Below, piece by piece: positions 16,885 to 49,998 of a stretch of 64,000 bases of DNA. Where the stretch lies: the IMG/VR virus record IMGVR_UViG_3300033145_000274, positions 32,001-96,000 of that record, one strand, 5' to 3'. Each line of letters starts with the position of its first letter. Position 1 is the stretch's first letter. The notes under the pieces were generated by a model. That model had not been told where the DNA came from and made no database searches. It worked only from the letters and a program-made list of their open reading frames with translations. This DNA comes from a virus. A program made the position numbers and the translations under genes.

Positions 16885-18186
16885 ATGACTACGCAAGCAC
16901 AAGAGCAGTCCGGCCAGTCGATTGCAACCGAGAGGCAGGAAAGCTACAGCGGCGACGTTATTCGCGAGAATCTGGAAATGGGCGACAAGCAAGGCTTCAA
17001 GGCCGTCGCCAAGTATTGGCTCGAAAACGGCTGTATGTCGTTCGACAAGGCTCAAGAGCGATTGGCCAGCGACCAACAGCAAATCGAAGATTTCCACTCC
17101 CCCCTGAAGGAGTGGGATGTTGTAGTCAAGCACAGTGGCATCGCCTTTCGACACCTGTCCAGTGGGCGGGATTACTCCCCCACCGACCATGCCCTCAATC
17201 TCATGTGTCAGGTTGGCCGTGGCATGTCCTCATGGACAGTACGCAATCTGAGGGACCCCATCCCCCACGCCACAAAGAAAGATGCGGACGGCGAGCCGGT
17301 AGCGGTCAAGGGTGGCGAACGTGGTCAGGCCGACTTTGAGGTACTCCGCGACTACATTAAGGTACACCTGTTCCACTCCGACCGTGTGGACCAGACCAAG
17401 CCCAGACTGTTCCGAACCTGGAGTGATGGCACCCTACGTGCCCTGCTTAGTGAGCAGTACACGATTGTCAACAACTTGTGGTTTCTGGACGTACTCCGCA
17501 AGGCCATTCCGGGGGGTGTTGTCTCCCACTGGCAGGGTGACGCCGATAGCATCTTCGGCAACATTCTGATTCCCGATACAATTCGGGCCGAAAGTGATTC
17601 CGACTTCGGCGGTATGCTCAGCGTGGGCAATAGCGAGATAGGAACCCGCCGAATTTCCTCCCTCCCCAGCGTGTTCCGAGCCATCTGTATGAACGGGTGC
17701 ATTTGGGACCAAGAATCCGGCACGGGTATCAACAAGGTTCACCGTGGCAAGGTCAATTTCATCGACCTGGAACATCACATCATCGAGAACCTAGAAGCTC
17801 AGATTCCCCTACTTCCCCAGGGTATCCAGCGGGTCCTCGGGTTGCGTGCGTACGGCTGTGGTGACACCCCCTTGTCCAACCTGTTGGCCCAGACTGCCAT
17901 CGACCATAGTCTGTCCAAACGACAGGTGGGGGTTATCTACGACGGCTGGAATGAGGAGCTACGCCTGCTAGGCCGCAAGGAAGCCCAGACCGCTTACGGG
18001 CTCACCAACGCCATCACACGGGCCGGGCAGCAGCTTGGCAGCAATGACCAGTGGGTCCGGTTCGACACCATCGGTGGGGAGTTCGCCAACTTCAACCGTG
18101 ACGGGTGGGATAAGTTCCGTAACCGGGCCGACAACCTGTCCGCCAAACAGGTGGAGAAGAGACTCGGAGAACTGGCCACTGTATGA
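16885..18186 (+). CDS. DUF932-like protein
   Basis: YTIVNN...VGNSEIGTRR...FRAICMNG. Confidence 0.7.
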   Translation: MTTQAQEQSGQSIATERQESYSGDVIRENLEMGDKQGFKAVAKYWLENGCMSFDKAQERLASDQQQIEDFHSPLKEWDVVVKHSGIAFRHLSSGRDYSPTDHALNLMCQVGRGMSSWTVRNLRDPIPHATKKDADGEPVAVKGGERGQADFEVLRDYIKVHLFHSDRVDQTKPRLFRTWSDGTLRALLSEQYTIVNNLWFLDVLRKAIPGGVVSHWQGDADSIFGNILIPDTIRAESDSDFGGMLSVGNSEIGTRRISSLPSVFRAICMNGCIWDQESGTGINKVHRGKVNFIDLEHHIIENLEAQIPLLPQGIQRVLGLRAYGCGDTPLSNLLAQTAIDHSLSKRQVGVIYDGWNEELRLLGRKEAQTAYGLTNAITRAGQQLGSNDQWVRFDTIGGEFANFNRDGWDKFRNRADNLSAKQVEKRLGELATV

Positions 18187-18256
18187 TAGCCATGCTTATC
18201 ATCACGGCAATAATCGTCAACATATTGCTACATATTGCCGAACGCCAGCAGTGAAC

Positions 18257-18301
18257 ATACCCCCCGACTGGACTATCCGGTCGGGGGGATGTTTTTGTTT
18301 G
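18257..18301 (+). terminator. intrinsic terminator
   Basis: CCCCCCGAC/GTCGGGGGG stem then T-rich run. Confidence 0.7.
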
Positions 18302-18303
18302 TC

Positions 18304-18430
18304 CTAAGTGGTTGTGGCGTAACGACTTAGGGCAAACAGGGGGCCGCCATCATGACACAACTCCCTATGTAGCCGTAACTTATATTCATTCAAGTTTTGG
18401 GGTTGACTTATCCGAATAGTATTGTATAAT
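18304..18430 (+). repeat. ACGACTTACG-box promoter element, copy 8 (diverged)
   Basis: CTAAGT, ACGACTTAG, GGGGGCCGCC, TCAAGTTTTGGGG, TTGACT-N16(CCGAATA)-TATAAT. Confidence 0.75.
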
Positions 18431-18476
18431 AGAGTAACACCAAACAACAATTCCCCTTTTTCAGGAGTGTTTTAGA

Positions 18477-19076
18477 ATGAAGCGTTTACTCGATTGCTTG
18501 TCCCAAGCAGAAGTCGGTCAAGAGGTAACCTTTAACTACCATGGTGGTAGTACCCCCGGCGAAGCACGTACCGTCCGTGTTATGGCCTCGACCACCGATG
18601 CGTTGCTGTCCGAACACATGCTTGGTCTGGACATTGTCCAGAACGAAATATGTGACTACCGCTTTGACCGGGCCAGTGATGTGTATATCATCACCGATGA
18701 CAAACCCGTCCCCAACATCAGGGTACGACACACCACCCATACATTCGTCGAAGCCCGTAAACGCCTGCACAACCAGATTGACGAACTCAACGGTGAAGAC
18801 CTGGCCGAAATCCTGGCGGAAATCGAAGGCGACGACAATGGTAATTTCGACGCAAGCACGGGCGAGGTAACCTTACTACGCAGTGTTTTGATTCCACATT
18901 GCAAACTCAATGCCGACAAGGCAGGCTTGGACTGGGTCAACGAAGACGGCGAAGTGCTCACCAGCCAGTGGCAGTTTCTCAACAACGCCGTACGTCTGTA
19001 TCTGGAAGACAACGAAGTTCCCCCCGTCGAATTTGCCTGCAAACTTTTTCAACATTTGGGATTGACAATCCAATAG
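18477..19076 (+). CDS. WYL-like domain protein
   Basis: VTFNYHGGSTPGEARTV...CDYRFDR. Confidence 0.55.
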   Translation: MKRLLDCLSQAEVGQEVTFNYHGGSTPGEARTVRVMASTTDALLSEHMLGLDIVQNEICDYRFDRASDVYIITDDKPVPNIRVRHTTHTFVEARKRLHNQIDELNGEDLAEILAEIEGDDNGNFDASTGEVTLLRSVLIPHCKLNADKAGLDWVNEDGEVLTSQWQFLNNAVRLYLEDNEVPPVEFACKLFQHLGLTIQ

Positions 19077-19135
19077 AACATGTTATAATAGACGTGTTCA
19101 ACTTACCTGTTTTTTCCTCAACAAGGAGTAGTATC

Positions 19136-19432
19136 ATGGCGAAAGCCACATTTTCCAACACCGATTTGTGTGTCGCATGGGCACATCAGGCTAAGGCCGA
19201 CCCCCAGGGGACACGCGGAGACGTAGTCCGTACCCTCATGGGCAAAATGGAGCAAGACCCCGGCAACGCCGAAGAGTACCGCAAGGTCTACAACAACGTG
19301 ACCCAGCGGGTCAAGCAGTTGGGCAACCACCCGACAAAACCGGTTCAGTTCCCGCAACTGGCGGCTGGCAAGAAGGGTGCCCGACGCACCGACGCCCAAA
19401 TGGAAGACCTCCAGGCTCTCTTCATCGACTAG
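19136..19432 (+). CDS. hypothetical protein
   Basis: MAKATFS after AAGGAG. Confidence 0.6.
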   Translation: MAKATFSNTDLCVAWAHQAKADPQGTRGDVVRTLMGKMEQDPGNAEEYRKVYNNVTQRVKQLGNHPTKPVQFPQLAAGKKGARRTDAQMEDLQALFID

Positions 19433-19486
19433 GGTATCGCTCAAGGCACGAGGGTACCGCTGTCACCAGCGAAATACCCTGGACCC

Positions 19487-19522
19487 GAAACCCCAGCAGC
19501 CGAAAGGTTGCTGGGGTTTTTT
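19487..19522 (+). terminator. intrinsic terminator
   Basis: CCCCAGCAGCC-gaaa-GGTTGCTGGGG plus T7. Confidence 0.8.
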
Positions 19523-19648
19523 CGTAAGTGCTTACGTCGCAACAACTTGCGACGATTAGGGGGGCACCACATCGACGTAACTGGTGTGGTAACAACAACT
19601 TACGGAAATTCTCAAGCCATTGACTTCTTTGTGTCGATATGGTATAAT
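19520..19648 (+). repeat. ACGACTTACG-box promoter element, copy 9
   Basis: CGTAAGTGCTTACG palindrome, ACAACTTGCG, ACAACTTACG, TTGACT-N17(CGATA)-TATAAT. Confidence 0.85.
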
Positions 19649-19868
19649 AGTTGCGGAGAGCAATTTCTGTGCCAATACACAGAAAAAATGAGAGAATAAG
19701 GGCACCGCATACCGGCCCCACCGTAGTGCCGCCCTGTGTCACCCAATCCAACCTGGTTAGTCACCAATAGTCGGTAGTCAGCGAGTGTCAGTGAGCATTG
19801 GGCTTGACAAGAGCGCCAGGAAGTGTATAATAGAATGCGAGCAACTATCGTGCCAACCAACCCAGGAA

Positions 19869-20132
19869 ATGCCTATGAGTACAAAAAAGAAGATTTATGT
19901 CACCAGCGGTGAGTTGGCCGTAGTCACAATTGCAGACGGCCCTATTGCCGCCATCAAAACCGCCCTGTTTCAATTTGGAACAGATAAGCGCCTGGATGAT
20001 GACTTTATTTATCTGGACGAACGTGGCTTCAGACACGACGACACAGCACAATACATAGTACCCCTTGAACAGGCTTTAGCCGAGGCGGGGTACGTCTACG
20101 AGGAACCCAAGTTCCCATCGGCTGAGGTATAG
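19869..20132 (+). CDS. hypothetical protein
   Basis: After promoter TTGACA-N16-TATAAT at 19804. Confidence 0.6.
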   Translation: MPMSTKKKIYVTSGELAVVTIADGPIAAIKTALFQFGTDKRLDDDFIYLDERGFRHDDTAQYIVPLEQALAEAGYVYEEPKFPSAEV

Positions 20133-29686: not shown

Positions 29687-30583
29687 ATGATGATTACCAA
29701 AATGAAACGTTTTGACGGTGGTGAAGGTAACGTATGGAAGTACGTCGTCCATTTTGATAAGCCGACACCAGCCATTGCTGAAGCCGTATTATATCGCTAT
29801 GGTTCCTTCAACGAACGCACGGTTGCGTGTTGTAGCGTGCAAAGCGGTTGTCCGGTCGGTTGTACGTTCTGTGGTACAGGCAAGAAGTTTATTCGCAATC
29901 TGTCTACTAGTGAGATAGTGCAGCAAGTCATTGAGGTTTTCAAAGACCAGGGCATTGCTGATATTAACGACAACTGCGCCAAGCTACAGATTATGTTCAT
30001 GTCTATGGGTGAGCCGTTTCTGAATTACAACAGCGTGAGCCTAGCCATAGAACAACTGCATGATTTGTATCCCAATGCCGAACTCCTGGTATCAACCATA
30101 GCTCCTATGAAACCCATGAACTTGAACGATTTCATCACTTTGTCTAAGCGATGCTCCAAGGTTGGCCTACAGTTTTCCATTCATGCGTCCGATGATACAA
30201 AACGTAACGCACTAATTCCTTACAACAAGTTGTCGCTAGTTGAACTGAGGAATTATGGAACACAGTGGTGGCATAAGACTGGGAGGAAGCCGTATATCAA
30301 TTACTGTGTTACCGAAGACTTTAATTACTACGACATGCGGCGCCTGCATCAGTTATTTCCCACCAATGTGTTCAACGTAACACTATCGGTGTTATGTTCT
30401 ACAGAGGAAACCATGAAAGAGGCTGGTTATCGTGACATACAACGTATTCGTTGGATTGCCGACGAGTTTATGTCGTTAGGATACAATGTGCGTGTGTTTG
30501 ACCCCGCTGGACAAGACGACATAGGTGGTGGTTGCGGCCAATTGTGGTATGTTCAACAACATCTACTAAGGAGCCAAGTATGA
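29687..30583 (+). CDS. rlmN: RlmN/Cfr-family radical SAM RNA methyltransferase
   Basis: CSVQSGCPVGCTFC, FMSMGEPF, FSIHA, C-terminal DIGGGCGQL catalytic Cys. Confidence 0.8.
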   Translation: MMITKMKRFDGGEGNVWKYVVHFDKPTPAIAEAVLYRYGSFNERTVACCSVQSGCPVGCTFCGTGKKFIRNLSTSEIVQQVIEVFKDQGIADINDNCAKLQIMFMSMGEPFLNYNSVSLAIEQLHDLYPNAELLVSTIAPMKPMNLNDFITLSKRCSKVGLQFSIHASDDTKRNALIPYNKLSLVELRNYGTQWWHKTGRKPYINYCVTEDFNYYDMRRLHQLFPTNVFNVTLSVLCSTEETMKEAGYRDIQRIRWIADEFMSLGYNVRVFDPAGQDDIGGGCGQLWYVQQHLLRSQV

Positions 30584-31239
30584 AAGACATGACTATTACG
30601 GCTGGTCCAGGTGATAAAGTTCGATTCTTCTTCATTGACGCAGGGCGTGATGATGATATCGAACACGCCATAAGCCACAATTTACAGTTTGATAAGGTGT
30701 ATACCATTACACGTGTTGTGGTACATAAATACACTACGCGCGTATGGCTTGATGGTATATCAACGCCCGTTGGCTTCAATAGCGTGTTGTTTGTTGATGA
30801 ACAAATTGACCGTGTTGCCTCTGCCGCTCGTCGGGCATACTACACAGACCAGGAACGTCGCACCGGCCTACCGTATGATACCGATAAGATAAACATCAAA
30901 GATACAATTTATGGTATTCGCGCCCTGGTGAAAGGCATCATATTTAATGACCCAATGTATGATGTACGAGATAACGAATCATATGACATTGGCATTATGC
31001 TGATGTCGGCTCTGGTCGTTGGTCCATATTTACCAGCCCTTATTGAATTTACTGACCTGCTAGCAGAAGACCTGGCGTATTACTTTCACATGGCCATGCA
31101 GTTCAATATATTTACGGATGATGATAAGATTGCATGTGCGTGGTTTGAGAGGGACGGCGCTATGGCTTTTCTAAGCGACATATGGTGTATCCAAGGTGTC
31201 CCACACAAACAATTGAGAAACGGAGGCGTAGTATTATGA
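30580..31239 (+). CDS. hypothetical protein
   Basis: Coupled ORF. Confidence 0.55.
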   Translation: MKDMTITAGPGDKVRFFFIDAGRDDDIEHAISHNLQFDKVYTITRVVVHKYTTRVWLDGISTPVGFNSVLFVDEQIDRVASAARRAYYTDQERRTGLPYDTDKINIKDTIYGIRALVKGIIFNDPMYDVRDNESYDIGIMLMSALVVGPYLPALIEFTDLLAEDLAYYFHMAMQFNIFTDDDKIACAWFERDGAMAFLSDIWCIQGVPHKQLRNGGVVL

Positions 31240-31487
31240 AAATACGAAACGGTTTCGTAAGCAACAGCAGTAGTAGTAGCTTTATTGTTACAGATAAGAA
31301 TCACCCATTGTGGTACTTTCTGATGGCGTTAAGCAAGGCAGGCTGTGCTGACTTTACTATTGATGAGCACAGAGTTGACGACACATGTGATAATGGAGTA
31401 TGGTTGGCTATTGGGCAGTTCAATGAGTTGGCTAACCGAAGCTTCGATTATACCGAGTTTCTCACACAAACTTCATTTAATGGGTAA
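31236..31487 (+). CDS. FVSNSS-motif protein 1
   Basis: MKIRNGFVSNSSSSSF. Confidence 0.7.
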   Translation: MKIRNGFVSNSSSSSFIVTDKNHPLWYFLMALSKAGCADFTIDEHRVDDTCDNGVWLAIGQFNELANRSFDYTEFLTQTSFNG

Positions 31488-31568
31488 TGATATGAAGCGA
31501 ACAAGAGCACGAAGATGAATCGTCGGACGTAGTTACTAACATGACAGTAATTTTAGAGGAGATAAACG

Positions 31569-32699
31569 ATGAGTAAAATAGTTGTTAAAGTCTGTAAAAT
31601 AGACGAAATCATACCGCATGGCAATGCCGATGCGTTAGAAGTAGCTTGTGTTGGTGCATGGACAACCTGTGTCAAGAAGGATGTATTTGCCGCAGGTGAC
31701 CTGGTGGTCTTTATTCCTCCCGATGCTATTCTTCCAAAAGAATTACATGAGCATTTGGGTATCACTCAGTATTGTGGTGAAATGCCGCAGAGTAGTGGAG
31801 AAGCTGAGCAAGGAAAGAGACGTGTGCGAGCTACACGTTTGAGGGGAGTGCGGTCGTTCGGTACTCTAATGACCATAGCTGATGTAGTAGAATACTTCAG
31901 GTCGGTACATGGTCATCCTCCTTCTCATTGTTATCCTTTTATGGAGGGCAACGAACTTTCTGTGTTGCTTGGCATCACCAAATATGAACCACCAGAGAAG
32001 ATTCGCCAGGGTGACCAAATGACCCCACATGCCTTGTTTCATAAGTACACAGACATAGAACGATATCAAAACTTTCCTTCCTTGCTTAAAGAAGGTGAGG
32101 AAGTGGTTATTTTGGAGAAAATCCATGGAACCAATTGTCGTGTTGGTCTGGTGATGACCGATGTGGGTCTTACGTTCATGGCTGGTTCACACAATACACG
32201 TCGCAAAGCAGTGGATACCATAGGTCACAATTCGCTTTATTGGAAACCACTTGACGAATCTATTGCAGACATGAAGGGCTTATTGGAATATGAGCAGCAT
32301 GAGCGAGAAGCCGTGTCTATCATAGTGTTCTGTGAAATTTATGGTCCTGGCATTCAGGATATGCAATACGCCGGATATTTAGCATACCGAGTATTTGATA
32401 TTGCTGTCAATGGTGAATATCTAAACTGGGATGATGTAGAGCGCATCTGTAAGGCTCATGCCGTTCCAACAGTGCCGGTACTCTATCAAGGTCCATTTAG
32501 TGAAGAGGTATTGATGGAACATACTGATGGCAATACTCAAGTATGCGAAGCCGTTACTGGTAAGTTCAAGGGTCGCGAAGGGTGTGTCGTAAAGCCCATT
32601 GTTGAACGACAGGATTTTGACATACCAAGTGGTCGAGTTATTCTCAAGAGTGTGGGTGCGGATTATCTCAACAGGAAAGGTGGTACGGATAACGCATGA
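31569..32699 (+). CDS. ATP-dependent RNA ligase, DRB0094/Rnl2-like, with N-terminal OB domain
   Basis: IIPHGNADALEVA, motif I EKIHGTN, CEIYG, FDI, EGCVVKP, ILKSV. Confidence 0.85.
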   Translation: MSKIVVKVCKIDEIIPHGNADALEVACVGAWTTCVKKDVFAAGDLVVFIPPDAILPKELHEHLGITQYCGEMPQSSGEAEQGKRRVRATRLRGVRSFGTLMTIADVVEYFRSVHGHPPSHCYPFMEGNELSVLLGITKYEPPEKIRQGDQMTPHALFHKYTDIERYQNFPSLLKEGEEVVILEKIHGTNCRVGLVMTDVGLTFMAGSHNTRRKAVDTIGHNSLYWKPLDESIADMKGLLEYEQHEREAVSIIVFCEIYGPGIQDMQYAGYLAYRVFDIAVNGEYLNWDDVERICKAHAVPTVPVLYQGPFSEEVLMEHTDGNTQVCEAVTGKFKGREGCVVKPIVERQDFDIPSGRVILKSVGADYLNRKGGTDNA

Positions 32700-33079
32700 T
32701 GAATCTGTATAACAGGGCTGTATACTGGCCAGATGTAGTGGAGCGTGCTATAAATGAAGTGACTGCCGAAGCTCAGCTTCATCGCTGTTATTATGGCGAC
32801 CATGCTAAAGCAGAAGCGCAACAAGACCGTTTTGGTCGTATCGTGTTGCCGTTACATTTGCCCGTGGTAAGTGAGGATATATTTGAAGCAGAACTCACTG
32901 GTGGGGGTAGGTTACATAAATTCCTGACGCGAATACCCCTAGACCAAAGTCGAGATATTGTTATGGTGTTAGTGCCACGTGGACCTGGTCACCTGTTTTG
33001 TAAGACCGTGTGGATAAATCATACGTATGACCACCACCAGACTCTCAAGCGCGAGCACTATATTCAAGAACCGGCTTGA
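32696..33079 (+). CDS. hypothetical protein
   Basis: Coupled ORF. Confidence 0.55.
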   Translation: MMNLYNRAVYWPDVVERAINEVTAEAQLHRCYYGDHAKAEAQQDRFGRIVLPLHLPVVSEDIFEAELTGGGRLHKFLTRIPLDQSRDIVMVLVPRGPGHLFCKTVWINHTYDHHQTLKREHYIQEPA

Positions 33080-33103
33080 CAAAGTCGAAAAATATGCTAC
33101 AAT
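33076..33103 (+). promoter_or_regulatory. sigma70-type promoter
   Basis: TTGACA-N16-TACAAT. Confidence 0.7.
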
Positions 33104-33112
33104 GGAGAAGTT

Positions 33113-33538
33113 ATGAAACAACGAAACGGTTTTGTTAGCAACTCGTCATCGGCTGCTTATGTCCTTAGCAAAGATGTATACCCAACTATTTGGGACGTGG
33201 CTATCGTCATGCTAACCACAAGAGACGTGGACCATGACGAGACACTTGGCAAGGACCATGGTTTCGACGATGGTGAATTGGAACGTGCAGTACGTAACTT
33301 AGATACGGGTGTCAATGCAACAGCCATTACATTCTCAACGTGTAACTTTGCAACATACATTTGGGACGCAGGAGATTCGTGGTGGGTAAGTACCTGTACT
33401 AATCATCCATTCTATCAACTGTTTTGTGATGACGGGGCGTTTACATCAACTACTGTGCCATCACCATATGTAGATTACGACGTAATGGGTTTTATCGAGT
33501 TCAAACTAGAAGACTATTGGGACTTTGTTGAGGTTTAA
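33113..33538 (+). CDS. FVSNSS-motif protein 2
   Basis: MKQRNGFVSNSSSAAY. Confidence 0.7.
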   Translation: MKQRNGFVSNSSSAAYVLSKDVYPTIWDVAIVMLTTRDVDHDETLGKDHGFDDGELERAVRNLDTGVNATAITFSTCNFATYIWDAGDSWWVSTCTNHPFYQLFCDDGAFTSTTVPSPYVDYDVMGFIEFKLEDYWDFVEV

Positions 33539-33540
33539 TC

Positions 33541-33939
33541 ATGCGTACACGACACGGTTTTGTAAGTAACTCATCTGTCACCAGTTTCATTATTGGTATC
33601 AAACGGGTAGCCGAGGTATGTCCCAGTTGTGGGCGTGGTGGTGAAGACTTGCTAAAGATATTAGATAGACACAACCATGAAGAAACAACGATGGAGTGGT
33701 CGGATGTTGATGCACACATTGCACAGCTACGTGCTAACATTAAACATTGCAGGTGGCAGGGCTGGGTTGATGAGGCTAACGCATACCAGCAGACAGTAGA
33801 TATGTTAGTTGAAGCTCAACAGCGTGATTTTCTTCAAATCATAGGTGTAGACATAAGTCATCACGACCCAGTCATGGATAAAACACTTGATGACATGAAG
33901 CGCAGTGGTGATATTACAATTCTACAAGGAGACGAGTGA
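33541..33939 (+). CDS. FVSNSS-motif protein 3
   Basis: MRTRHGFVSNSSVTSF, CPSC. Confidence 0.7.
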   Translation: MRTRHGFVSNSSVTSFIIGIKRVAEVCPSCGRGGEDLLKILDRHNHEETTMEWSDVDAHIAQLRANIKHCRWQGWVDEANAYQQTVDMLVEAQQRDFLQIIGVDISHHDPVMDKTLDDMKRSGDITILQGDE

Positions 33940-35039
33940 TGATGTATCCATATATGATACAGGATGATGAGCAGGTTAAAAACCTATGTAGCCCTGACTA
34001 CTCGTTTCATTTCAACAAGCAAACCGGCTTCTTTGCCAGGTGGGGTAAAACCATTAACAAAGCCGATGACCCACAATGGAGTCCGTATGGTCCCGAGATT
34101 CTTGATTTAGAAATTTCTACTGGAGAATGTAAGGGGCGATGTAAGTTCTGTTACAAAGAGAACGGGCAGCCAAAGGCTGCAACCCAACACATGACGTTTG
34201 CTACATTCAAAGATATTCTGAGTAGAATGCCACCCACCTTGACGCAGATAGCATTAGGAATTACTGACGTAAAAGGTAATCCAGATTTCTTTAGAATCAT
34301 GAGACATACTCGTGAGCAAGGAATCATCCCTAATTACACGACACATGGGCTAGATATGGACACATACGATGCAGACTTGACTGCTGAACTGTGTGGTGCA
34401 ACGGCGGTTTCGATTGTTAATAAAGAAAAGGCATACGATACCATAAAGATGCTCACTGACCGTGGTATGGACCAGGTTAATATCCATTGGATGTTATCAG
34501 CCGAACGTATTGACGCCGCTATGGCATTGATAGATGACATTAAAAGCGACCCTAGATTGGCGAAGCTCAATGCGGTTGTTTTTCTGCAATATAAACCTAA
34601 GGGTAGTAACGCTGACTCATTCAGTACGCCGTCTATGACGCGCTTCAAAGAACTGATTGAATACTGTGACGAACATGAGGTTAGGTATGGCTTTGACAGT
34701 TGTACTGCACCAATGTACATGCGTGCCATCCAGGGACATCCCGATGCCGAACAATTAGAACAGTGTGTTGAGCCTTGTGAGAGCGGGTTGTTTTCGTCGT
34801 ACATCAATGTTAATGGCGATTTCTTTGCTTGCTCATTTTGTGAAGGCGAAGCCGGTTGGACTGAGGGTATCAGCGTATTGGATTATGACAACTTTGTGGA
34901 CCTGTGGCGTTTGCCGCGACTGGATGAGTGGAGAAAAATCCTACTCGCCAATCAACGCGCTTGTCCCATGTATGTACTAGGAGATGGTTCCAGTGGAAAA
35001 CTATACGGTGTGGCGTTATCCGATAAAGCTAACGTCTAA
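33936..35039 (+). CDS. radical SAM protein with SPASM/twitch domain
   Basis: CKGRCKFC; C-terminal CESGLFSSYINVNGDFFACSFC...CPMY. Confidence 0.85.
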   Translation: MMMYPYMIQDDEQVKNLCSPDYSFHFNKQTGFFARWGKTINKADDPQWSPYGPEILDLEISTGECKGRCKFCYKENGQPKAATQHMTFATFKDILSRMPPTLTQIALGITDVKGNPDFFRIMRHTREQGIIPNYTTHGLDMDTYDADLTAELCGATAVSIVNKEKAYDTIKMLTDRGMDQVNIHWMLSAERIDAAMALIDDIKSDPRLAKLNAVVFLQYKPKGSNADSFSTPSMTRFKELIEYCDEHEVRYGFDSCTAPMYMRAIQGHPDAEQLEQCVEPCESGLFSSYINVNGDFFACSFCEGEAGWTEGISVLDYDNFVDLWRLPRLDEWRKILLANQRACPMYVLGDGSSGKLYGVALSDKANV

Positions 35040-35319
35040 GATTGCACGCGCACAGAAATCCGTAATGCTTAAAGTGCCAACCGGTGCAAAGCTGTTGTCT
35101 GTGGGATTAACTCCATGGCAATACAACGCAGTCCAACTATGGTTCATGGTAAATTCAGAAGTAACATCAACCACATTTGTGGAAGTGTTGATTATGGAAA
35201 CTGGCGTGGCCATGGTATCAAAAGAAATGATGGAGCGATTGACGTTTGTGGGGACAGTAACAACCGTTGCTAAAAAGGTGTATCACGTGTTTACCGTATG
35301 TACAGAAGAAAGAATATGA
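34984..35319 (+). CDS. hypothetical protein
   Basis: ORF between rSAM and motif protein 4. Confidence 0.5.
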   Translation: MVPVENYTVWRYPIKLTSKIARAQKSVMLKVPTGAKLLSVGLTPWQYNAVQLWFMVNSEVTSTTFVEVLIMETGVAMVSKEMMERLTFVGTVTTVAKKVYHVFTVCTEERI

Positions 35320-35768
35320 TGAAAATACGACATGGCTTCGTAAGCAATAGCAGTAGCAGTGGATTTGTGGTGCGCATGTGTGGTTGGTTGACCACGAAAG
35401 AACGTTTTCTTACACCTGAGCAAGAAAGCATGTTACGTGAATATGGTTTTCAGCCCTCAAGATATTCGTATGCTAGTCAAGTAGAAGCGTCGCAGGGAGA
35501 TGCTAAAGCCCCGACGCCATTGGATAGCGATGCACTGTTCTATTATGTAGTGTGTAATGAGCAAAGCGTAATAGCGTGGTTGGTTAAAAATCGTATTCCG
35601 TTTCACGCCTCGACACACTACAGTCATCAGACTATCATATATGATGGCAAGGGTACAAAGATTACCGAGATTCCTAACTATGGACTGTTAGCTGAAATGC
35701 ATGGCATAGAGCACTTAACCGAAGAGTTTCCAGACAAAGACCTTAACATAGAAAGTTATGAACCATGA
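35316..35768 (+). CDS. FVSNSS-motif protein 4
   Basis: MMKIRHGFVSNSSSSGF. Confidence 0.7.
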   Translation: MMKIRHGFVSNSSSSGFVVRMCGWLTTKERFLTPEQESMLREYGFQPSRYSYASQVEASQGDAKAPTPLDSDALFYYVVCNEQSVIAWLVKNRIPFHASTHYSHQTIIYDGKGTKITEIPNYGLLAEMHGIEHLTEEFPDKDLNIESYEP

Positions 35769-36040
35769 AAGCATTAGTAAAGTATGTGCGTGGCAGTAAG
35801 AACAGTCGAGTCGGTGTTGTTGTGGCCATTGGCCGAGGTCAGGTCGGTTGGAGCCGGTGTAATAATCGCCTGGATACCTTCGACAAACAACGTGGACTAG
35901 TTATCGCCATGGGCAGAGCAGGTGCGTATTGCAATGTCGCCATGACTGCCTTGGAGACCATACCTTCCAGCATGAGAGATGCTGTTATGGACATGCACAA
36001 TAGGTCTCAACGTTACTACAAAGAAGGAGCACAGTCGTGA
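35765..36040 (+). CDS. hypothetical protein
   Basis: Coupled ORF. Confidence 0.55.
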   Translation: MKALVKYVRGSKNSRVGVVVAIGRGQVGWSRCNNRLDTFDKQRGLVIAMGRAGAYCNVAMTALETIPSSMRDAVMDMHNRSQRYYKEGAQS

Positions 36041-36447
36041 AAATTCGCCATGGTTTCGTAAGCAATAGTAGCTCCAATAGCTTCACATGTGATATCAGTG
36101 GTCGTACCAAATCGGGTTGGGACTTCAGCCTAGACGATGCTGATATGTATATCTGTGAAAAGGGTCATGTTATGTGTGGGCATTACGTACGTGACTTCAT
36201 TACGGACTTAGTAGCCAAGGGTGATGTTGACGCTGTTATACAAAGCATTGAAGGACTACGTATCGTGCCAACCAGCATGTGTCCCATATGTCAACTCAAG
36301 TATATATCGGAGGAGAATATACTGCGCTACCTATGTGCGCGTCGGGGCCAAACATATGATGAAGTGCGCCAGGCCATTGGAGATGATTACGGTGATGCGC
36401 CCGAGGAATTTTACGAGTTTATCGACATTGTTGAAAAACGGCCTTGA
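36037..36447 (+). CDS. FVSNSS-motif protein 5 (Cys-rich)
   Basis: MKIRHGFVSNSSSNSFTC...CEKGHVMC...CPIC. Confidence 0.7.
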   Translation: MKIRHGFVSNSSSNSFTCDISGRTKSGWDFSLDDADMYICEKGHVMCGHYVRDFITDLVAKGDVDAVIQSIEGLRIVPTSMCPICQLKYISEENILRYLCARRGQTYDEVRQAIGDDYGDAPEEFYEFIDIVEKRP

Positions 36448-36472
36448 CAAAATTCAAGTCGTATGCTAGAAT
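36444..36472 (+). promoter_or_regulatory. sigma70-type promoter
   Basis: TTGACA-N17-TAGAAT. Confidence 0.7.
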
Positions 36473-36526
36473 GGTCGATAACACGGGTGAGCACTAACTT
36501 TCAAACTTTTGTTGAAGGACACAAGA

Positions 36527-38674
36527 ATGATAACCAAACCCAAACACTTTGTTCAAAGAGATGGTGGTAAGTTTGTACGAAAAGAATTTACAATTGCCGC
36601 CACACCAGAAGCCTTCAGAATACTTAGTGACGGCTTGTATTCTAAAAAAATTGAAGCCGTAATACGTGAACTCAGTACAAACGCCGTCGATGCACACATC
36701 GTGGCTGAAAATGATGATGTATTTGAGGTTCACCTACCGTCGTTTGAAGAACCCTGGTTTGTCGTTCGAGATTACGGCACGGGCATGTCACATGATGATG
36801 TGATGGACCTTTATTCCACGTATTTTGGAACTAATAAGGCAGACGACCTAAACACGACCGGATGTTTGGGTCTTGGGTCCAAGTCTCCACTGGCTAAGGT
36901 GCGGTCCTTCACCGTTGTATCGCGTTTTGACGGCATGGAACGTCACTATATCGTAACACTCAATGAAGACCGTATTCCCGAAGTTGACCACCTGGTTGAA
37001 CAATCCAAGCCCACTACCGATAGCGGCATGGAGATTCAGATGGCCGTGGCAACCAGTGATATTTCTGAGTATATTCGCAAAGCTGCTCAGGTATACTTCC
37101 ATTTTGATGCTCAGCAACGACCACGTATTATCAATGGGCGTAGTTATGAGTTGTCCAAACCAGAGATTCTAATCGAAGGTACTGGATGGCGCATGTATAA
37201 GGGTGCGGGTACTCCCGTGGCCGTACAAGGTAGTGTTGGTTATCCAATTGCATCTGCACAAATCAAACACATCAAGCCCCATCATGAAATGGTCTTGTCG
37301 TGCAATCTGGAGATTGATTTTCCCAATGGTAGTGTTCACTTCACTCCATCACGTGAGCATCTGTCGTATGATAAAACCACATGTCGGTCATTGACCAGTC
37401 GTTTGGATAAAATTGTAAGCGAAGTCAACGACATGATTGGTAAACGTTTCGACACATGTACCACATTGTGGGAAGCGCGTACGTTAGCCTATGATATGTT
37501 TTGGACCAATAGTGCCGACCTGCGTCATCTACACTCACTGGCTGAGACTGGTGAGATTACTTGGAAGGGTCAAAAGATTGCTGGAAAACAGTTGTCTTTC
37601 AGTGACATACAAGGAGTGGCGGGTTGGTCGTTTGAAACACGACGAAATCGTAATAACTATTGGGATAAAAACACCAAGGTATCACGAAATGAACGTAGCA
37701 TTTTCACCCCACGTGGTAATGTGGTGTGGTGCGAAACAGATATCCCGCGTGGTAGCTATTCCCGATGTCATCAATACATACAAGACCATCAAGATACGTG
37801 TATATACCTGGTAAGTTTCAGTGCGCCCAAGGCACGCCAAGAGTTCTGTGACGAAATGGGACTTGACGGCACGGAGTTCATTAAAACCTCTACCATGCCA
37901 AAGCCTGTTAGCACACGCAGTGGCAGCGGTAAGCTGCATCGGTCCACCTCGTTGGTCTACAAACATATAGGAGGCGTCCATCGTACCCGTTTGTATCAGT
38001 ATTGGAAGAAAACCGAAGTAGACCTGGATAACGGTGAGGGTGGTGTATATGTCGAGATGAAAAACAACAAGGTTGTCAACCCTCAAGGTCACCGGGTTGA
38101 GCCCACTGTGGTTTCCACGTTGGTAAGCCTACTCGATGACGTTGGACAAGAACATATTGAGGTTATCGGCGTACGTCCCCAGGTTGCCAAACGGTTTCGT
38201 AAGTCGGACGACTGGGTAGACCTCTTTACATACGCACGCCACGTTGTTGAGATTGAAGTTGTGCAAAAGCAGTTGGCACAACATATCGTCAATGCCGAAC
38301 ATTTGCGTGATTTGACCAACAGCAGCATATGGTGTTCAATGATGCAGAAAGCAGATGCACTTGGTAAGCTAGACAAGACCATGGCTTTGCATAAGCTCAT
38401 TGAAGACCTACAACACATGCAGAAGTCCAATGATGCCTGTCGTGCTTATTCGCATTGGCGCACACTAGCCACAGAATGTGGTGTTAGTTTGGACGACGTA
38501 GAACCCGAACGTTATATCAGCGTGTCAATTGAAAACATGTATAGTCAGTATCCTATGTTGGAACTGATTCTGGATATAAAAACCTCTAATTACCATCATC
38601 ATCCTTTTCAAACCAATGAACTTCAACACATACGGCATTACGTAAGTTTGGTAGAATCTCAGAATTGCGGTTGA
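36527..38674 (+). CDS. rIIA: rIIA-like protein (GHKL ATPase N-terminus)
   Basis: IRELSTNAVDAH, VRDYGTGMS, GCLGLGSKSP; followed by rIIB. Confidence 0.85.
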   Translation: MITKPKHFVQRDGGKFVRKEFTIAATPEAFRILSDGLYSKKIEAVIRELSTNAVDAHIVAENDDVFEVHLPSFEEPWFVVRDYGTGMSHDDVMDLYSTYFGTNKADDLNTTGCLGLGSKSPLAKVRSFTVVSRFDGMERHYIVTLNEDRIPEVDHLVEQSKPTTDSGMEIQMAVATSDISEYIRKAAQVYFHFDAQQRPRIINGRSYELSKPEILIEGTGWRMYKGAGTPVAVQGSVGYPIASAQIKHIKPHHEMVLSCNLEIDFPNGSVHFTPSREHLSYDKTTCRSLTSRLDKIVSEVNDMIGKRFDTCTTLWEARTLAYDMFWTNSADLRHLHSLAETGEITWKGQKIAGKQLSFSDIQGVAGWSFETRRNRNNYWDKNTKVSRNERSIFTPRGNVVWCETDIPRGSYSRCHQYIQDHQDTCIYLVSFSAPKARQEFCDEMGLDGTEFIKTSTMPKPVSTRSGSGKLHRSTSLVYKHIGGVHRTRLYQYWKKTEVDLDNGEGGVYVEMKNNKVVNPQGHRVEPTVVSTLVSLLDDVGQEHIEVIGVRPQVAKRFRKSDDWVDLFTYARHVVEIEVVQKQLAQHIVNAEHLRDLTNSSIWCSMMQKADALGKLDKTMALHKLIEDLQHMQKSNDACRAYSHWRTLATECGVSLDDVEPERYISVSIENMYSQYPMLELILDIKTSNYHHHPFQTNELQHIRHYVSLVESQNCG

Positions 38675-38746: not shown

Positions 38747-39778
38747 ATGAACATGTCTTCAATTCACTCAATTATGTCTGGCGATGGTACTATCTGTTTG
38801 GTTGTGGATGGTAAGCACTACACTGTGTCTGTCACTCACCCATCATACCACGAGATGCGTGAACTGATACTCGCTAGACCTCTTAACGAGCCAGCCTTGT
38901 TACAAACGTTGAACATCACCGACAAGATTGCCCACTTGCTGGAGGGTAAGGTACGTGTTGATTTGGAAGAGGGCAAGGTCTGGTACAACGATACTGAGTT
39001 TCACGACCCGGCATTCTGTGAACGCATACTACGACTTATGTCGGAAGGTCAGGATGTATCCTACTTGGTTAACTTCTTGAACAACCTTGGCCAGAACCCT
39101 GAGTTCCGTGCCATTATGGAAACCTTCAAGTTCATCTGTCAGGAAGGTATGCCCATTACTCCCGACGGCTGTTTCCTGGGCTACAAGGGCGTGCGTGATG
39201 ACTTCTATGATGAGTGGAGTGGGACCATAGACAATACCCCTGACGGTCGTCGTGTAGAGTATGACCGGGCCAAGGTCTGTAACAATCCTAACAATTCTTG
39301 TGCTCAGGGATTGCACGTTGGGTCTCATCGCTATGCTAGTAACTGGTCACAGCGCGTAGTTCTCGTAAAGGTTAATCCCAAGGACGTTGTTAGTGTTCCT
39401 AACCATGATTGCGAAAAGATGCGTGTTTGTGGTTATTGGATACTGAAGGAGTTCGGTAAAGACCGTGATGTCCTCAAGGGTGAAGTTTATGACTCGACCG
39501 GACAACGTGTTGAGGGTTCTGTATTTACAGAACTGGAGGAACGCGGTCAGTTCGACCATGATGTGGCTTCACACTGGGATGACGAAGAGGGTCGTACGTA
39601 CGCCGATGGCCTGGAAGACGGGCGTGATGACGATATCGAGCCCGAACCTGAGTTCTGCGATGAATGTCGTGAACTGGTTGAAGACTGCATATGCGAGGAC
39701 TTATGTCCAACGTGTGGTATGCTGGATTGTGAGTGTGATGATAACTACGACCCTTGGGGAAAAGACGACGATGACTAA
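38747..39778 (+). CDS. rIIB: rIIB-like protein with acidic tail
   Basis: ITPDGCFLGYKGVR, GLHVGS, VKVNPKDVVSVP. Confidence 0.85.
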   Translation: MNMSSIHSIMSGDGTICLVVDGKHYTVSVTHPSYHEMRELILARPLNEPALLQTLNITDKIAHLLEGKVRVDLEEGKVWYNDTEFHDPAFCERILRLMSEGQDVSYLVNFLNNLGQNPEFRAIMETFKFICQEGMPITPDGCFLGYKGVRDDFYDEWSGTIDNTPDGRRVEYDRAKVCNNPNNSCAQGLHVGSHRYASNWSQRVVLVKVNPKDVVSVPNHDCEKMRVCGYWILKEFGKDRDVLKGEVYDSTGQRVEGSVFTELEERGQFDHDVASHWDDEEGRTYADGLEDGRDDDIEPEPEFCDECRELVEDCICEDLCPTCGMLDCECDDNYDPWGKDDDD

Positions 39779-47016: not shown

Positions 47017-47359
47017 GGGCCTGTCATGGTTTCGACAGGATATTGGAGTTTGTGATTGCGTGTCGTGGTTTACCGAATGGCCACGAAAAAAATCGGTAAA
47101 AAACCTTTAATTGGCAATAACATTGTCGAAGGCTTCGCAGTAGCCGGGTTCGCCTCTCAAAAGGCCCCCAACGCTGCCCCTCAGTTCAGCTTTGTTTAAC
47201 GACAAGTTATCTGAGGCGACGGCTTAATCTTGTGCCATAACAAGAGCATATCATATTTAGAGACAGTTTTGTTTGTTGTACAGCTTAACAACAAACTACA
47301 CACGTAGACGTTGCTTAATAAGGTATCGCTGGAAATGGGTTCGACTCCCATCAGGTCCA
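47017..47359 (+). ncRNA. ssrA: tmRNA
   Basis: GGGCCTG/CAGGTCC-A acceptor with G3.U70, 5' GGTTTCGAC, 3' T-arm ATGGG-TTCGACT-CCCAT, tag frame 47113-47199 preceded by UA at -5/-4. Confidence 0.9.
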
Positions 47360-47468
47360 CTTATTTCATACTATTGAAAATTCACATGTGAAACTGGACA
47401 ATGGGATAGTTTTCCGTGTATAATAGTATGGGTAGACGTTAATTTTCAATACATTAGGGGAGAGAGAA

Positions 47469-49527: not shown

Positions 49528-49568
49528 CTTATGTGATTTACTTAGGATTCTTGTGAAGGAAAAGTGCT

Positions 49569-49910: not shown

Positions 49911-49913
49911 TAT

Positions 49914-49987: not shown

Positions 49988-49998
49988 CTGACAATCAT

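What the first reader, a model, noticed from the sequence alone, without database searches (positions are those of the whole stretch)
31236..36447. Five proteins sharing an N-terminal MKxRxGFVSNSS(S) motif surround a radical SAM/SPASM enzyme
Seen: ORFs at 31236, 33113, 33541, 35316 and 36037 begin MKIRNGFVSNSSSSSF, MKQRNGFVSNSSSAAY, MRTRHGFVSNSSVTSF, MMKIRHGFVSNSSSSGF and MKIRHGFVSNSSSNSF, then show no obvious similarity to each other. Three sit in one promoter-led run (33076) with the rSAM/SPASM gene, which is translationally coupled to motif protein 3. Established: SPASM rSAM enzymes typically modify peptides or proteins at a short recognition motif (anSME, RiPP maturases). Inference: the motif is a portable modification or processing tag (Ser/Asn modification, crosslink, or N-S cleavage) put on diverse cargo proteins, i.e. 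an uncharacterised phage post-translational modification system. I know the motif only from hypothetical proteins.
Basis: partly seen in the sequence, partly recalled or inferred. Interest (0 to 1): 0.82.

Follow-up and report, generated by a model that had tools for sequence, protein, structure and literature searches.

The report
Phage radical-SAM enzyme with tagged proteins
Five otherwise unrelated small phage proteins start with the same 16-residue serine-rich tag, and this tag travels across hundreds of phage genomes with one radical-SAM enzyme family that looks like a peptide-modifying enzyme, pointing to an undescribed, testable protein-tagging system.

Summary
Exactly five ORFs in the window start M-[KR]-x-R-[NH]-G-F-V-S-N-S-S, and the motif occurs nowhere else in the six frames. 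Serine codons differ between copies, so selection acts on the peptide.

The link to the radical SAM gene is real and runs both ways. Of 78 viral loci fetched by the tag alone, 49 carry a homologue of this enzyme within 10 kb. Of 80 loci fetched by the enzyme alone, 76 carry tagged genes, always on its strand. No other gene family is shared.

The tag sits at residue 1 in nearly all of more than 22,000 protein clusters. It heads at least 105 cargo families that profile comparison does not relate. In the one family folded (m5), AlphaFold leaves the tag unstructured.

The enzyme folds like the peptide/protein maturases SuiB, SkfB and anSME. In phages it keeps only one auxiliary-cluster cysteine set, so it is twitch-like rather than full SPASM.

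A bacterial sister cassette pairs one tagged protein and a full-SPASM enzyme with an Avs2-like NLR gene.

Best reading: the tag is the enzyme's recognition element and probably its modification site. The chemistry and the biological role are unknown. I found no paper describing the tag. Earlier runs of this scan found the same system on other DNA.

The parts
31236..31487 (+). Tagged protein m1 (83 aa), cargo without relatives among the loci examined
   Evidence: Starts MKIRNGFVSNSSSSSF. It is a singleton cargo cluster. Its ATG overlaps the stop of the upstream ORF (ATGA), with GGAGG 8 nt upstream.
33076..33103 (+). Promoter-like site in front of the m2-to-m5 gene run
   Evidence: TTGACA, 16 nt, TACAAT with TG before it; 11 of 12 matches. 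It lies in the gap before m2. This is a consensus match only.
33113..33538 (+). Tagged protein m2 (141 aa)
   Evidence: Starts MKQRNGFVSNSSSAAY. Its cargo family has 8 members in 8 loci and shares a 'TCNNH' motif.
33541..33939 (+). Tagged protein m3 (132 aa), with a CxxC knuckle after the tag; its stop overlaps the rSAM start
   Evidence: Starts MRTRHGFVSNSSVTSF. Cargo family of 8 members. An orthologue sits directly upstream of the rSAM in L002. The junction reads GAGTGATGATG.
33939..35039 (+). Radical SAM enzyme with a twitch-like (truncated SPASM) C-terminal domain; phrog_7293
   Evidence: phrog_7293 E 1.6e-80. Conserved C65/C69/C72 plus C256, C281, C299 and C343, with C281-x12-G294-x4-C299. 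AlphaFold2 pLDDT 92.5. VIA matches: SuiB Z 25, SkfB Z 22, anSME Z 20. Pfam SPASM hits 34 of 47 family members. The ORF opens at GTG 33936; ATG 33939 has AAGGAG 7-8 nt upstream.
34993..35319 (+). DUF7352 protein in the same gene run; not a conserved partner of the system
   Evidence: PF24043 E 3.8e-13. Absent from 158 related viral loci. The start (ATG 34984 or GTG 34993) is uncertain.
35319..35768 (+). Tagged protein m4 (149 aa)
   Evidence: Starts MKIRHGFVSNSSSSGF. Cargo family of 9 members, including L002 11845. Its start overlaps the DUF7352 stop.
35765..36040 (+). Untagged 91-aa ORF inside the run, function unknown
   Evidence: No Pfam or PHROG hit. Found in 2 of 158 related loci. ATGA and GTGA overlaps on both sides.
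36037..36447 (+). Tagged protein m5 (136 aa, GTG start): zinc-ribbon-like strands followed by a helical domain
   Evidence: Cargo family of 35 members in 23 loci, plus P0002-P0004. Invariant C40, C82 and C85, nearly invariant C18. AlphaFold2 pLDDT 87 overall, but residues 1-10 average 49 with no secondary structure before residue 13. No significant PDB fold match.
36444..36472 (+). Promoter-like site that closes the run, in front of the rIIA-like gene
   Evidence: TTGACA, 17 nt, TAGAAT with TG; 11 of 12 matches. This is a consensus match only.

Best explanation
The five ORFs belong to a very large class of small, acidic, mostly phage-encoded proteins. These proteins share only a 16-18-residue tag fixed at the N-terminus: M-K-x-R-x-G-F-V-S-N-S-S-S-x-S-F, followed by two hydrophobic residues.

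**Proposed mechanism.** The tag is the recognition element for the co-encoded radical SAM enzyme (33939-35039). That enzyme is a protein-directed maturase with one radical SAM cluster and one auxiliary [4Fe-4S] cluster. It would bind the flexible tag of each newly made cargo protein. It would then use a 5'-deoxyadenosyl radical to abstract a hydrogen in or next to the invariant V-S-N-S-S core. The outcome would be a covalent change, for example oxidation of Ser to an aldehyde (as anSME and BtrN do) or an intrachain crosslink. One enzyme would thus mature many unrelated proteins.

**Shown**
- The tag, its fixed position and its independence from the cargo.
- Two-way genomic coupling to this enzyme family.
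- The enzyme's fold class and conserved cysteines.
- The disordered prediction for the m5 tag.

**Inferred**
- That the enzyme binds the tag.
- That it modifies the tag rather than another site.
- The chemistry.
- The biological role. An early, anti-host or counter-defence role is suggested only by the gene context, the acidic cargo and the Avs2-linked sister cassette in bacteria.
For: **Coupling between tag and enzyme**
- 49 of 78 IMG/VR loci fetched by the tag alone hold a homologue of the enzyme (37-54% identity) within 10 kb.
- Of 10 large contigs without a nearby enzyme, 5 have it elsewhere. These include all 3 contigs that are at least 96% complete.
- 73 of 80 loci fetched by the enzyme profile alone hold strict tags. 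Three more hold variant tags. All tags lie on the enzyme's strand.
- The enzyme is the only other gene family shared widely across the loci.
- In cultured phages the enzyme (173 records) and two tagged proteins (175 and 174 records) have near-identical host-genus counts.
- 24 of 41 loci from bacterial and archaeal genome bins also have the pair.

**Tag behaviour**
- 22,488 representative clusters match the tag, and almost all matches start at residue 1.
- 332 of 342 tags have R exactly 3 codons after the start.
- The cargo falls into 105 BLAST clusters, with no profile-level homology between the 17 largest families compared, apart from one pair of small clusters at 84%.
- Variants at tag positions 6-7 cluster by genome across unrelated cargo. 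There are 18 same-locus variant pairs against a shuffle mean of 3.0 and maximum of 13; 0 of 2000 shuffles reach the observed value. In L203 all 4 tags carry S6-L7. This is what a shared, genome-specific partner would produce.
- AlphaFold2 leaves m5 residues 1-12 unstructured (mean pLDDT 49 over residues 1-10) although they are the most conserved columns.

**Enzyme**
- CX3CX2C is conserved, and four C-terminal Cys are invariant, including the CX12GX4C motif.
- The top structural neighbours are peptide/protein maturases: SuiB Z 25, SkfB Z 22, anSME Z 20, CteB Z 19.5.
- The SuiB and SkfB alignments start in the enzyme's N-terminal beta-strand region, at model residues 7-13 and chain residues 3-12.
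Against: - No chemistry has been observed. In known RiPP systems the conserved piece is usually the handle, not the modified site.
- In cultured T4-like phages the tagged genes lie about 20 kb from the enzyme, so adjacency is not obligatory.
- 29 of 78 tag loci lack the enzyme within 10 kb. Five large but incomplete contigs show none at all.
- Most of the phage contigs may come from related lineages, so the loci are not fully independent samples.
- Only one cargo family was folded, so a small common fold in other families is not excluded.
- The window enzyme itself scores below Pfam's Radical_SAM cut-off (18.7 against 29.5 bits).
- The within-genome clustering of tag variants could also come from gene duplication or gene conversion.
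Confidence: 0.55

Rival explanations
1. The tag is only a docking handle. The enzyme binds it but modifies a residue elsewhere in the cargo. Alternatively, the tagged proteins are adaptors or regulators that bring the enzyme to other substrates such as host proteins, nucleic acids or small molecules.
For: - In RiPP systems the conserved leader is the grip and the variable part is modified (established knowledge of SuiB, PqqE and CteB).
- The cargo is extremely diverse, as a set of adaptors would be.
- m5 has a zinc-ribbon-plus-helical domain that could bind a target.
Against: - A radical enzyme needs a defined residue in its active site. Nothing outside the tag is conserved between cargo families.
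- The invariant S9-N10-S11-S12 run is more conserved than a mere binding strand needs to be.
Confidence: 0.2
2. The tag is an independent sorting or processing signal, and the enzyme is not its reader. Candidates are capsid packaging like the T4 internal-protein targeting sequence, a degradation signal, or export. The two genes merely co-travel in a variable early region of one phage lineage.
For: - T4 internal proteins share a short N-terminal capsid-targeting sequence on diverse cargo (my recollection, not tested here).
- In GAP161-type phages the tagged genes sit about 20 kb from the enzyme.
Against: - The enzyme is the only family that stays with the tags while all neighbouring genes change.
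- The pair also occurs as a tight cassette on large contigs of Acidobacteriota and Verrucomicrobia genome bins, where no capsid is in play.
- Tags are always on the enzyme's strand.
- The tag lacks the T4-type cleavage residue Glu.
Confidence: 0.1
3. The motif is the first structural or catalytic element of one very divergent small protein fold. All tagged proteins would then be paralogues, and the enzyme link would be indirect.
For: - After the serine run, nearly all members continue with F-[IV]-[IV], a likely strand.
- By eye, several families show a later hydrophobic strand followed by acidic residues.
- C-terminal G or H is frequent.
Against: - Profile-profile comparison of the 17 largest cargo families finds no homology, apart from one pair of small clusters.
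- In the m5 model residues 1-12 are not part of the fold, and the fold starts at residue 13.
- The distance from the start codon is fixed in 332 of 342 tags, which is unusual for an internal fold element.
- Only one family was folded, so this test is incomplete.
Confidence: 0.07
4. The tag is a glycyl-radical-type site (R-x-G-F resembles the R-V-x-G-[YF] fingerprint) and the enzyme is its activase.
For: R4 is invariant in the loci examined. G6 and F7 are nearly invariant.
Against: - G6 is replaced by S, A, K, C or R in 20 of 496 tags, and in all four tags of L203.
- The spacing differs from the fingerprint.
- The activase PflA is a much weaker structural match (Z 13.5) than SuiB or anSME, and PflA-type activases lack the SPASM/twitch domain.
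- A glycyl radical needs a protecting barrel, and these small proteins do not share one.
Confidence: 0.02

Closest known systems
RiPP radical SAM maturases with SPASM or twitch domains (SuiB/StrB for streptide, SkfB, CteB)
   Same: - Best structural matches: SuiB Z 25 over 309 residues, SkfB Z 22, CteB Z 19.5.
- CX3CX2C and the CX9-15GX4C hairpin are present.
- One enzyme is encoded beside several substrates that share one conserved recognition sequence.
   Different: - The substrates are 83-199-aa proteins (5th-95th percentile), not short peptides.
- The conserved piece is at residue 1 and only about 16 residues long.
- There is no full RRE domain, only four N-terminal strands.
- No protease or exporter gene is conserved nearby.
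- The phage clade has one auxiliary cluster.
Anaerobic sulfatase-maturating enzyme (anSME/AtsB) with sulfatases
   Same: - A radical SAM enzyme of the same fold class (Z 20) that acts on whole proteins at a short Ser/Cys-containing motif.
- It oxidises a Ser side chain, a plausible chemistry for a serine-rich tag.
   Different: - The anSME motif (C/S)-x-(P/A)-x-R is absent.
- anSME has two auxiliary clusters, and the phage enzyme has the ligands for one.
- anSME serves one substrate family, whereas this system has over 100.
- No sequence-level family membership was found.
BtrN (twitch-domain radical SAM dehydrogenase)
   Same: - A single auxiliary cluster in a truncated SPASM (twitch) domain.
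- Profile hits to both halves of BtrN, and VIA Z 15.5.
   Different: BtrN acts on a small-molecule aminocyclitol, has no peptide substrate and is much smaller.
FxSxx-peptide plus radical SAM/SPASM modules of bacterial conflict systems (Kaur, Burroughs, Iyer, Aravind 2020, PMC7159879)
   Same: - A radical SAM/SPASM gene sits beside variable proteins that share a short conserved piece, inside NTPase-centred conflict systems.
- F7-V8-S9-N10-S11 of the tag formally fits FxSxx.
   Different: - There the conserved piece is C-terminal, and it is released by a peptidase in vWA-MoxR (VMAP) ternary systems.
- Here it is N-terminal, with no peptidase and no vWA-MoxR genes.
- The FxsB family is not among the 25 best NCBIfam hits shown, of 30, for the bacterial sister enzyme.
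KpAvs2 defence operon with Avap1 (radical SAM) and Avap2 (DUF6375) (Bechon et al. 2024, PMC11564622)
   Same: - The bacterial sister cassette found here also joins an Avs2-like STAND NTPase, a radical SAM enzyme and small accessory proteins.
- In that paper the radical SAM partner is needed against some phages and does not look like a nucleotide-modifying viperin.
   Different: - Homology between Avap1 or Avap2 and the proteins here was not shown.
- The tagged proteins do not hit DUF6375.
- The gene order and the NTPase's N-terminal domain (SMEK_N rather than an Mrr nuclease) differ.
- The window itself has no STAND gene.

Membership tests
Radical SAM superfamily | CX3CX2C motif that binds the SAM-cleaving [4Fe-4S] cluster | tested here: met
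   C65-x3-C69-x2-C72 is present in 96-100% of 47 family members.
Radical SAM superfamily | Partial TIM-barrel fold, or a curated family score | tested here: met
   AlphaFold2 pLDDT 92.5. VIA Z 17-25 to many radical SAM structures. Pfam PF04055 hits 36 of 47 members, but the window protein scores only 18.7 bits against the 29.5-bit cut-off.
SPASM/twitch domain | CX9-15GX4C hairpin around auxiliary cluster I | tested here: met
   C281-x12-G294-x4-C299, with C281 and C299 invariant. C256 and C343 are also invariant. Pfam SPASM hits 34 of 47 members, best E 1.3e-7.
Full SPASM domain (two auxiliary clusters) | CX2CX5CX3C motif that supplies the ligands of auxiliary cluster II | tested here: not met
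   Only the last Cys (C343) is universal in the phage clade, and a CxxC is present in 51%. The bacterial sister enzyme L093 has the full C-x2-C-x5-C-x3-C. The phage enzyme is therefore twitch-like.
RiPP maturase with precursor peptides | RiPP recognition element (winged helix-turn-helix) on the enzyme or a partner | tested here: inconclusive
   Residues 7-36 form four strands with no helices. The VIA alignments to SuiB and SkfB begin at model residues 7-13 and chain residues 3-12. No separate RRE-like gene is conserved.
RiPP maturase with precursor peptides | Short precursor with a leader and a core, later cleaved and exported | tested here: not met
   Tagged ORFs are 83-199 aa (5th-95th percentile). 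Short ones are rare and not conserved. No protease or transporter is conserved beside them.
anSME/AtsB system | Substrate motif (C/S)-x-(P/A)-x-R in a sulfatase | tested here: not met
   The tag consensus M-K-x-R-x-G-F-V-S-N-S-S-S-x-S-F lacks this motif. The cargo has no sulfatase domain.
Glycyl radical enzyme plus activase | R-V-x-G-[YF] fingerprint with an essential Gly, and a PflA-type activase | tested here: not met
   G6 is replaced in 20 of 496 tags and in all four tags of L203. PflA scores Z 13.5 against 25 for SuiB.
T4-type capsid targeting sequence | Tagged proteins are packaged in the head and cleaved by the prohead protease | not testable with these tools
   This needs virion proteomics. 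The tag lacks the Glu of the T4-type cleavage site (sequence; the comparison is from my recollection).
Avs2-associated accessory genes (Avap1/Avap2) | Encoded in an operon with an Avs2-family STAND NTPase | tested here: inconclusive
   Not true of the window or of the phage loci. True of 6 of the 7 bacterial sister loci; L103 matches p128, the tagged protein and the enzyme but not the NTPase. The L093 NTPase hits PADLOC Avs2 at E 1.8e-23 and Pfam SMEK_N at E 7.9e-29. It hits NCBIfam Avs2 only below the cut-off.
Avs2-associated accessory genes (Avap1/Avap2) | Small partner belongs to DUF6375 (PF19902) | tested here: not met
   The tagged proteins and the 128-aa neighbour give no PF19902 hit even at E 10. 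None is found in five host genomes, although the control genomes also gave no hit. None of the 120 listed homologues of the bacterial tagged protein (of 160 found) carries a precomputed PF19902 annotation.

The most novel reading that the evidence does not exclude
Large phages carry a general protein-marking system. A single radical SAM enzyme installs a covalent radical-derived modification on a universal 16-residue N-terminal tag. Examples would be a Ser-derived aldehyde or an intrachain crosslink. The tag is worn by dozens of unrelated small acidic effector proteins per genome. A sister version of the same enzyme-tag pair is wired to NLR-like (Avs2-type) immune sensors in bacteria. The modification would then be a currency in the phage-host arms race, and the tag could be used as a portable, enzyme-addressable handle for protein engineering.
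Probability: 0.35. Interest if true: 0.9.

Novelty: new variant of a known kind. Interest (0 to 1): 0.75.

Why it matters
- **Scale.** The tag heads more than 22,000 protein clusters at 50% identity, almost all annotated as hypothetical. Explaining it would give a functional handle on a large block of phage 'dark matter'.
- **New substrate logic.** A radical SAM maturase that serves over a hundred unrelated folded proteins through one N-terminal tag differs from both RiPP maturases and anSME. It could reveal new radical chemistry on Ser or Asn.
- **Immunity link.** The Avs2-linked bacterial sister cassette ties the system to immunity. It may explain why some Avs2 operons need a radical SAM partner.
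- **Testability.** The system is present in cultured T4-like phages of E. coli, Klebsiella, Enterobacter and Cronobacter (the RB43, RB16 and GAP161 group). Each has one enzyme and two tagged proteins.

Tried and rejected
- **DNA-level repeat.** Rejected: serine codons differ between copies, and upstream DNA is not conserved.
- **Known family for the tagged proteins.** Pfam gave nothing. PHROGs gave only phrog_7397, matching the first 24 residues. PADLOC gave nothing. The ESM Atlas returned only 'hypothetical protein' virus clusters.
- **Remote homology between cargo families.** All-against-all hhalign of the 17 largest families found none, apart from one pair of small clusters.
- **Fold of m5.** No significant PDB match, only weak zinc-finger-like rows.
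- **tblastn of m1 against phage records.** No match, probably because the low-complexity filter masks the serine run.
- **The look-up of encoding contigs.** The contexts of P0002-P0004 were therefore not read.
- **Other operon genes as conserved partners.** DUF7352, orf91, the RNA ligase and rIIA were tested and rejected.
- **Phe7 cyclophane (triceptide-like) as the universal chemistry.** Made unlikely by L7 variants in whole genomes.
- **Glycyl radical site.** Rejected (see rival explanations).
- **Identity of the tagged proteins with Avap2/DUF6375.** Not supported.
- **Literature.** The tag strings appear in no relevant paper. Nothing on the RB43/RB16 radical SAM gene goes beyond annotation.

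Full report
**1. Observation**

- The window holds exactly five ORFs that begin M-[KR]-x-R-[NH]-G-F-V-S-N-S-S. They start at 31236, 33113, 33541, 35319 and 36037.
- A six-frame scan finds the core [FYW][VIL]SNSS nowhere else.
- The DNA alignment shows the serines encoded by AGC/AGT in some copies and TCN in others, with no upstream conservation. Selection therefore acts on the peptide.
- Beyond residue 18 the five proteins fall into five different BLAST clusters.
- The gene run 33113-36447 contains m2, m3, the radical SAM gene, a DUF7352 gene, m4, a 91-aa ORF and m5. It is bracketed by two 11-of-12 promoter-like sites with an extended -10 TG, at 33076 and 36444.
- Every junction in that run is an ATGA, GTGA or TGATG overlap or a 2-nt gap, including the m3 stop and the enzyme start.
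- m4 more likely starts at 35319 than at 35316.
- A sixth tagged gene lies elsewhere on the same 125-kb viral contig.

**2. The tag is a widespread, position-fixed module**

- A profile of the first 35 residues was searched against 1.84 billion representative proteins. It found 22,488 clusters at E <= 0.001.
- Nearly all of the best 150 are 40-250 aa long and match from residue 1.
- The few internal matches examined (9 proteins) are head-to-tail fusions of two tagged proteins. In each, the second tag still begins with M or V.
- In 78 IMG/VR loci fetched by the peptide pattern RxGFVSNSS (474 stretches matched in all), I counted 342 tagged ORFs. Of these, 332 have R exactly three codons after a start codon, and a single 20-kb locus holds up to 14.
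- The consensus is M-K-[IVT]-R-x-G-F-V-S-N-S-S-[ST]-[ST]-S-F-[IV]-[IV].
- The remainder of each protein is acidic, with a median net charge of -10. The remainders fall into 105 BLAST clusters.
- Profile-profile comparison of the 17 largest families finds no relationship, apart from one pair of small clusters.
- Tagged ORFs are real proteins, 83-199 aa at the 5th-95th percentile. Very short ones are rare and not conserved.

**3. Coupling to the radical SAM enzyme**

- Tag-to-enzyme: 49 of the 78 tag-fetched loci contain a homologue of the window enzyme (37-54% identity) within 10 kb.
- Ten large contigs lacked a nearby enzyme. Five of them have it elsewhere, including all three contigs that are at least 96% complete. 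The five without are 40-88% complete.
- Enzyme-to-tag: of 80 loci fetched by the enzyme profile alone, 73 have strict tags within 10 kb. That includes 49 of the 56 on contigs not seen in the tag fetch. Three more have variant tags. Every tag is on the enzyme's strand.
- The enzyme is the only family besides the tagged proteins shared by more than 13 of 80 loci.
- The other genes of the window's operon are essentially absent from 158 related loci. DUF7352 is in 0, the 91-aa ORF in 2, the RNA ligase in 7 and rIIA in 3, against 129 for the enzyme. The link is therefore not a by-product of conserved synteny.
- In cultured phages the enzyme occurs in 173 records and two tagged proteins in 175 and 174 records. 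The host genera are the same: Klebsiella, Enterobacter, Cronobacter, Citrobacter and Escherichia, that is the RB43/RB16/GAP161 group of T4-like phages.
- In those phages the genes lie about 20 kb apart.
- An earlier check recorded in this scan's notes reported that only 10 of 129 phage-form tags had an enzyme nearby. My IMG/VR counts are much higher. The distant arrangement in the many near-identical cultured T4-like genomes may explain the difference, but I did not test that.

**4. The enzyme**

- It is phrog_7293 (E 1.6e-80). It is weak against Pfam Radical_SAM and reaches no curated NCBIfam cut-off.
- Across 47 homologues, the universally conserved Cys are C65, C69 and C72, plus C256, C281, C299 and C343. 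C281-x12-G294-x4-C299 matches the SPASM/twitch hairpin.
- The CX2CX5CX3C motif of full SPASM domains is absent. Only its last Cys is universal, and half the members have a CxxC.
- The phage enzyme should therefore hold one auxiliary cluster, which makes it twitch-like.
- Pfam SPASM still matches 34 of 47 members. A family profile hits BtrN and SkfB in the PDB.
- The AlphaFold2 model is confident (pLDDT 92.5).
- Foldseek ranks SuiB, SkfB and CteB first, and BlsE and anSME are also in its top 11. VIA-align gives SuiB Z 25, SkfB Z 22, anSME Z 20 and CteB Z 19.5.
- Residues 7-36 form four beta-strands. The SuiB and SkfB alignments begin in this region (model residues 7-13, chain residues 3-12). 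I did not check whether those chain residues form their recognition domains.

**5. Tag or fold element?**

- The m5 family (38 sequences) gave a good model (pLDDT 87).
- Residues 1-10 of that model average pLDDT 49, and no secondary structure precedes residue 13, although these are the invariant columns.
- Conserved but unstructured is the signature of a linear motif read by a partner.
- Rare variants at tag positions 6-7 cluster by genome on unrelated cargo. In L203 all four tags read S-L instead of G-F, and in L180 four of five lack G6.
- The count is 18 same-locus variant pairs, against a shuffle mean of 3.0 and a maximum of 13 in 2000 shuffles.
- This fits co-adaptation to one genome-specific reader, though duplication or gene conversion could contribute.
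- The variants also argue against chemistries that need G6 (a glycyl radical) or F7 (a Phe7 cyclophane).
- Only one family could be folded, so the shared-fold rival is weakened, not excluded.

**6. Beyond phages**

- A scan of one genome per prokaryotic species found 125 pattern stretches, of which 43 were confirmed and 41 loci kept. Nearly all are from metagenome-assembled genomes of many bacterial and archaeal phyla. 24 of the 41 have the enzyme.
- Seven loci from Acidobacteriota and Verrucomicrobia genome bins, one on a 1.47-Mb contig, share a cassette.
- Its four genes are:
  1. a roughly 950-aa STAND NTPase with an SMEK_N domain and an Avs2-like NACHT module;
  2. a 128-aa protein;
  3. 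one tagged 137-aa protein;
  4. an overlapping radical SAM enzyme that keeps the full CX2CX5CX3C SPASM motif.
- Six of the seven loci match the NTPase. L103 matches the other three genes only.
- In L093 two large ORFs lie just downstream. By eye they look like integrases, but I did not test them.
- The tagged protein of this cassette has at least 160 homologue clusters. None of the 120 listed has a Pfam family.

**7. Literature**

- The tag strings occur in no relevant paper in the searched library.
- Kaur et al. 2020 (PMC7159879) describe radical SAM/SPASM genes beside variable proteins that share a conserved C-terminal FxSxx peptide, within vWA-MoxR (VMAP) conflict systems. That is related logic in a different arrangement.
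- Bechon et al. 2024 (PMC11564622) show that a Klebsiella Avs2 operon needs a small partner, Avap2 (DUF6375). For some phages it also needs a radical SAM partner, Avap1, whose function is unknown.
- I could not obtain those sequences. The tagged proteins here do not hit DUF6375, so any relationship is open.
- Earlier runs of this scan reached the same general reading on other genomes. They are not independent evidence.

**8. Verdict**

- The 'portable tag coupled to a radical SAM enzyme' reading is well supported by comparative genomics and structure prediction.
- Whether the tag is the modified site or only the handle is unknown. So are the chemistry and the role in infection.
- I put about 0.55 on recognition plus covalent modification in or beside the tag.

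Noticed in passing
window 29687-30583 (+): A second radical SAM gene of the RlmN/Cfr RNA-methyltransferase type. TIGR00048 E 2.7e-30 and Cfr models E about 1e-20, all far below the curated cut-offs. By eye it has a C-terminal GGGCGQL that resembles RlmN's catalytic Cys motif (the comparison is from my recollection). Its target in a phage is unknown.
   Followed up: partly
window 31569-32699 (+): An ATP-dependent RNA ligase of the DRB0094 type (TIGR02306 E 7e-49, above the cut-off) lies between m1 and m2. By eye it has an EKIHGTN motif like that of T4 Rnl2 (the comparison is from my recollection). It is present in only 7 of 158 related loci.
   Followed up: partly
window 47017-47362 and 49442-63719 (+): A phage-encoded tmRNA (Rfam 113 bits; tag peptide ending ...APQFSFV) is followed by an array of 19 tRNA genes. 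One further tRNA-Met lies at 14354.
   Followed up: no
window about 6000-20000: A block of higher G+C (0.50-0.57, against about 0.44 elsewhere) holds only short ORFs. It includes a third radical-SAM-like ORF at 11359-12153 (phrog_13987, E 1e-8) and the lone tRNA-Met. It may be a module of different origin.
   Followed up: no
window 36509-38674 and 38747-39778 (+): A candidate rIIA (weak ATPase-family hits only; the rIIA call is my reading of the sequence) and rIIB (phrog_609, E 6e-53) lie directly downstream of the tagged-gene run. This would place the run in a T4-style early region.
   Followed up: partly
L007 4529-4819 and 4822-5865 (same contig, outside the window): The sixth tagged gene (MHIRCGFVSNSSTTSF..., 96 aa) is followed immediately by a 347-aa protein with a PP-loop-like FSGGTDSS motif, far from the radical SAM gene.
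   Followed up: no
L093 6736-11502 (also L096, L101, L103, L105, L089, L095): A conserved bacterial cassette of four genes: SMEK_N/Avs2-like STAND NTPase, a 128-aa protein, one tagged protein, and a full-SPASM radical SAM enzyme. Two large downstream ORFs in L093 look like integrases by eye, untested. This is a candidate defence system resembling the published KpAvs2-Avap1-Avap2 operon.
   Followed up: partly
proteins P0007-P0014, P0024: Database proteins contain two tags in tandem. The internal tag always still starts with M or V. These are either natural fusions or merged gene calls in genomes with recoded or lost stops. P0024 shows the variant tag MKxRxDFVTNSS.
   Followed up: no
window 363-2552 (-) and 2929-4098 (-): A large terminase subunit (phrog_2, E 1e-26) and a nucleotide-sugar epimerase-like gene (phrog_540, E 8e-68) lie on the opposite strand at the left end. 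An aminotransferase-like gene lies at 61067-62161.
   Followed up: no
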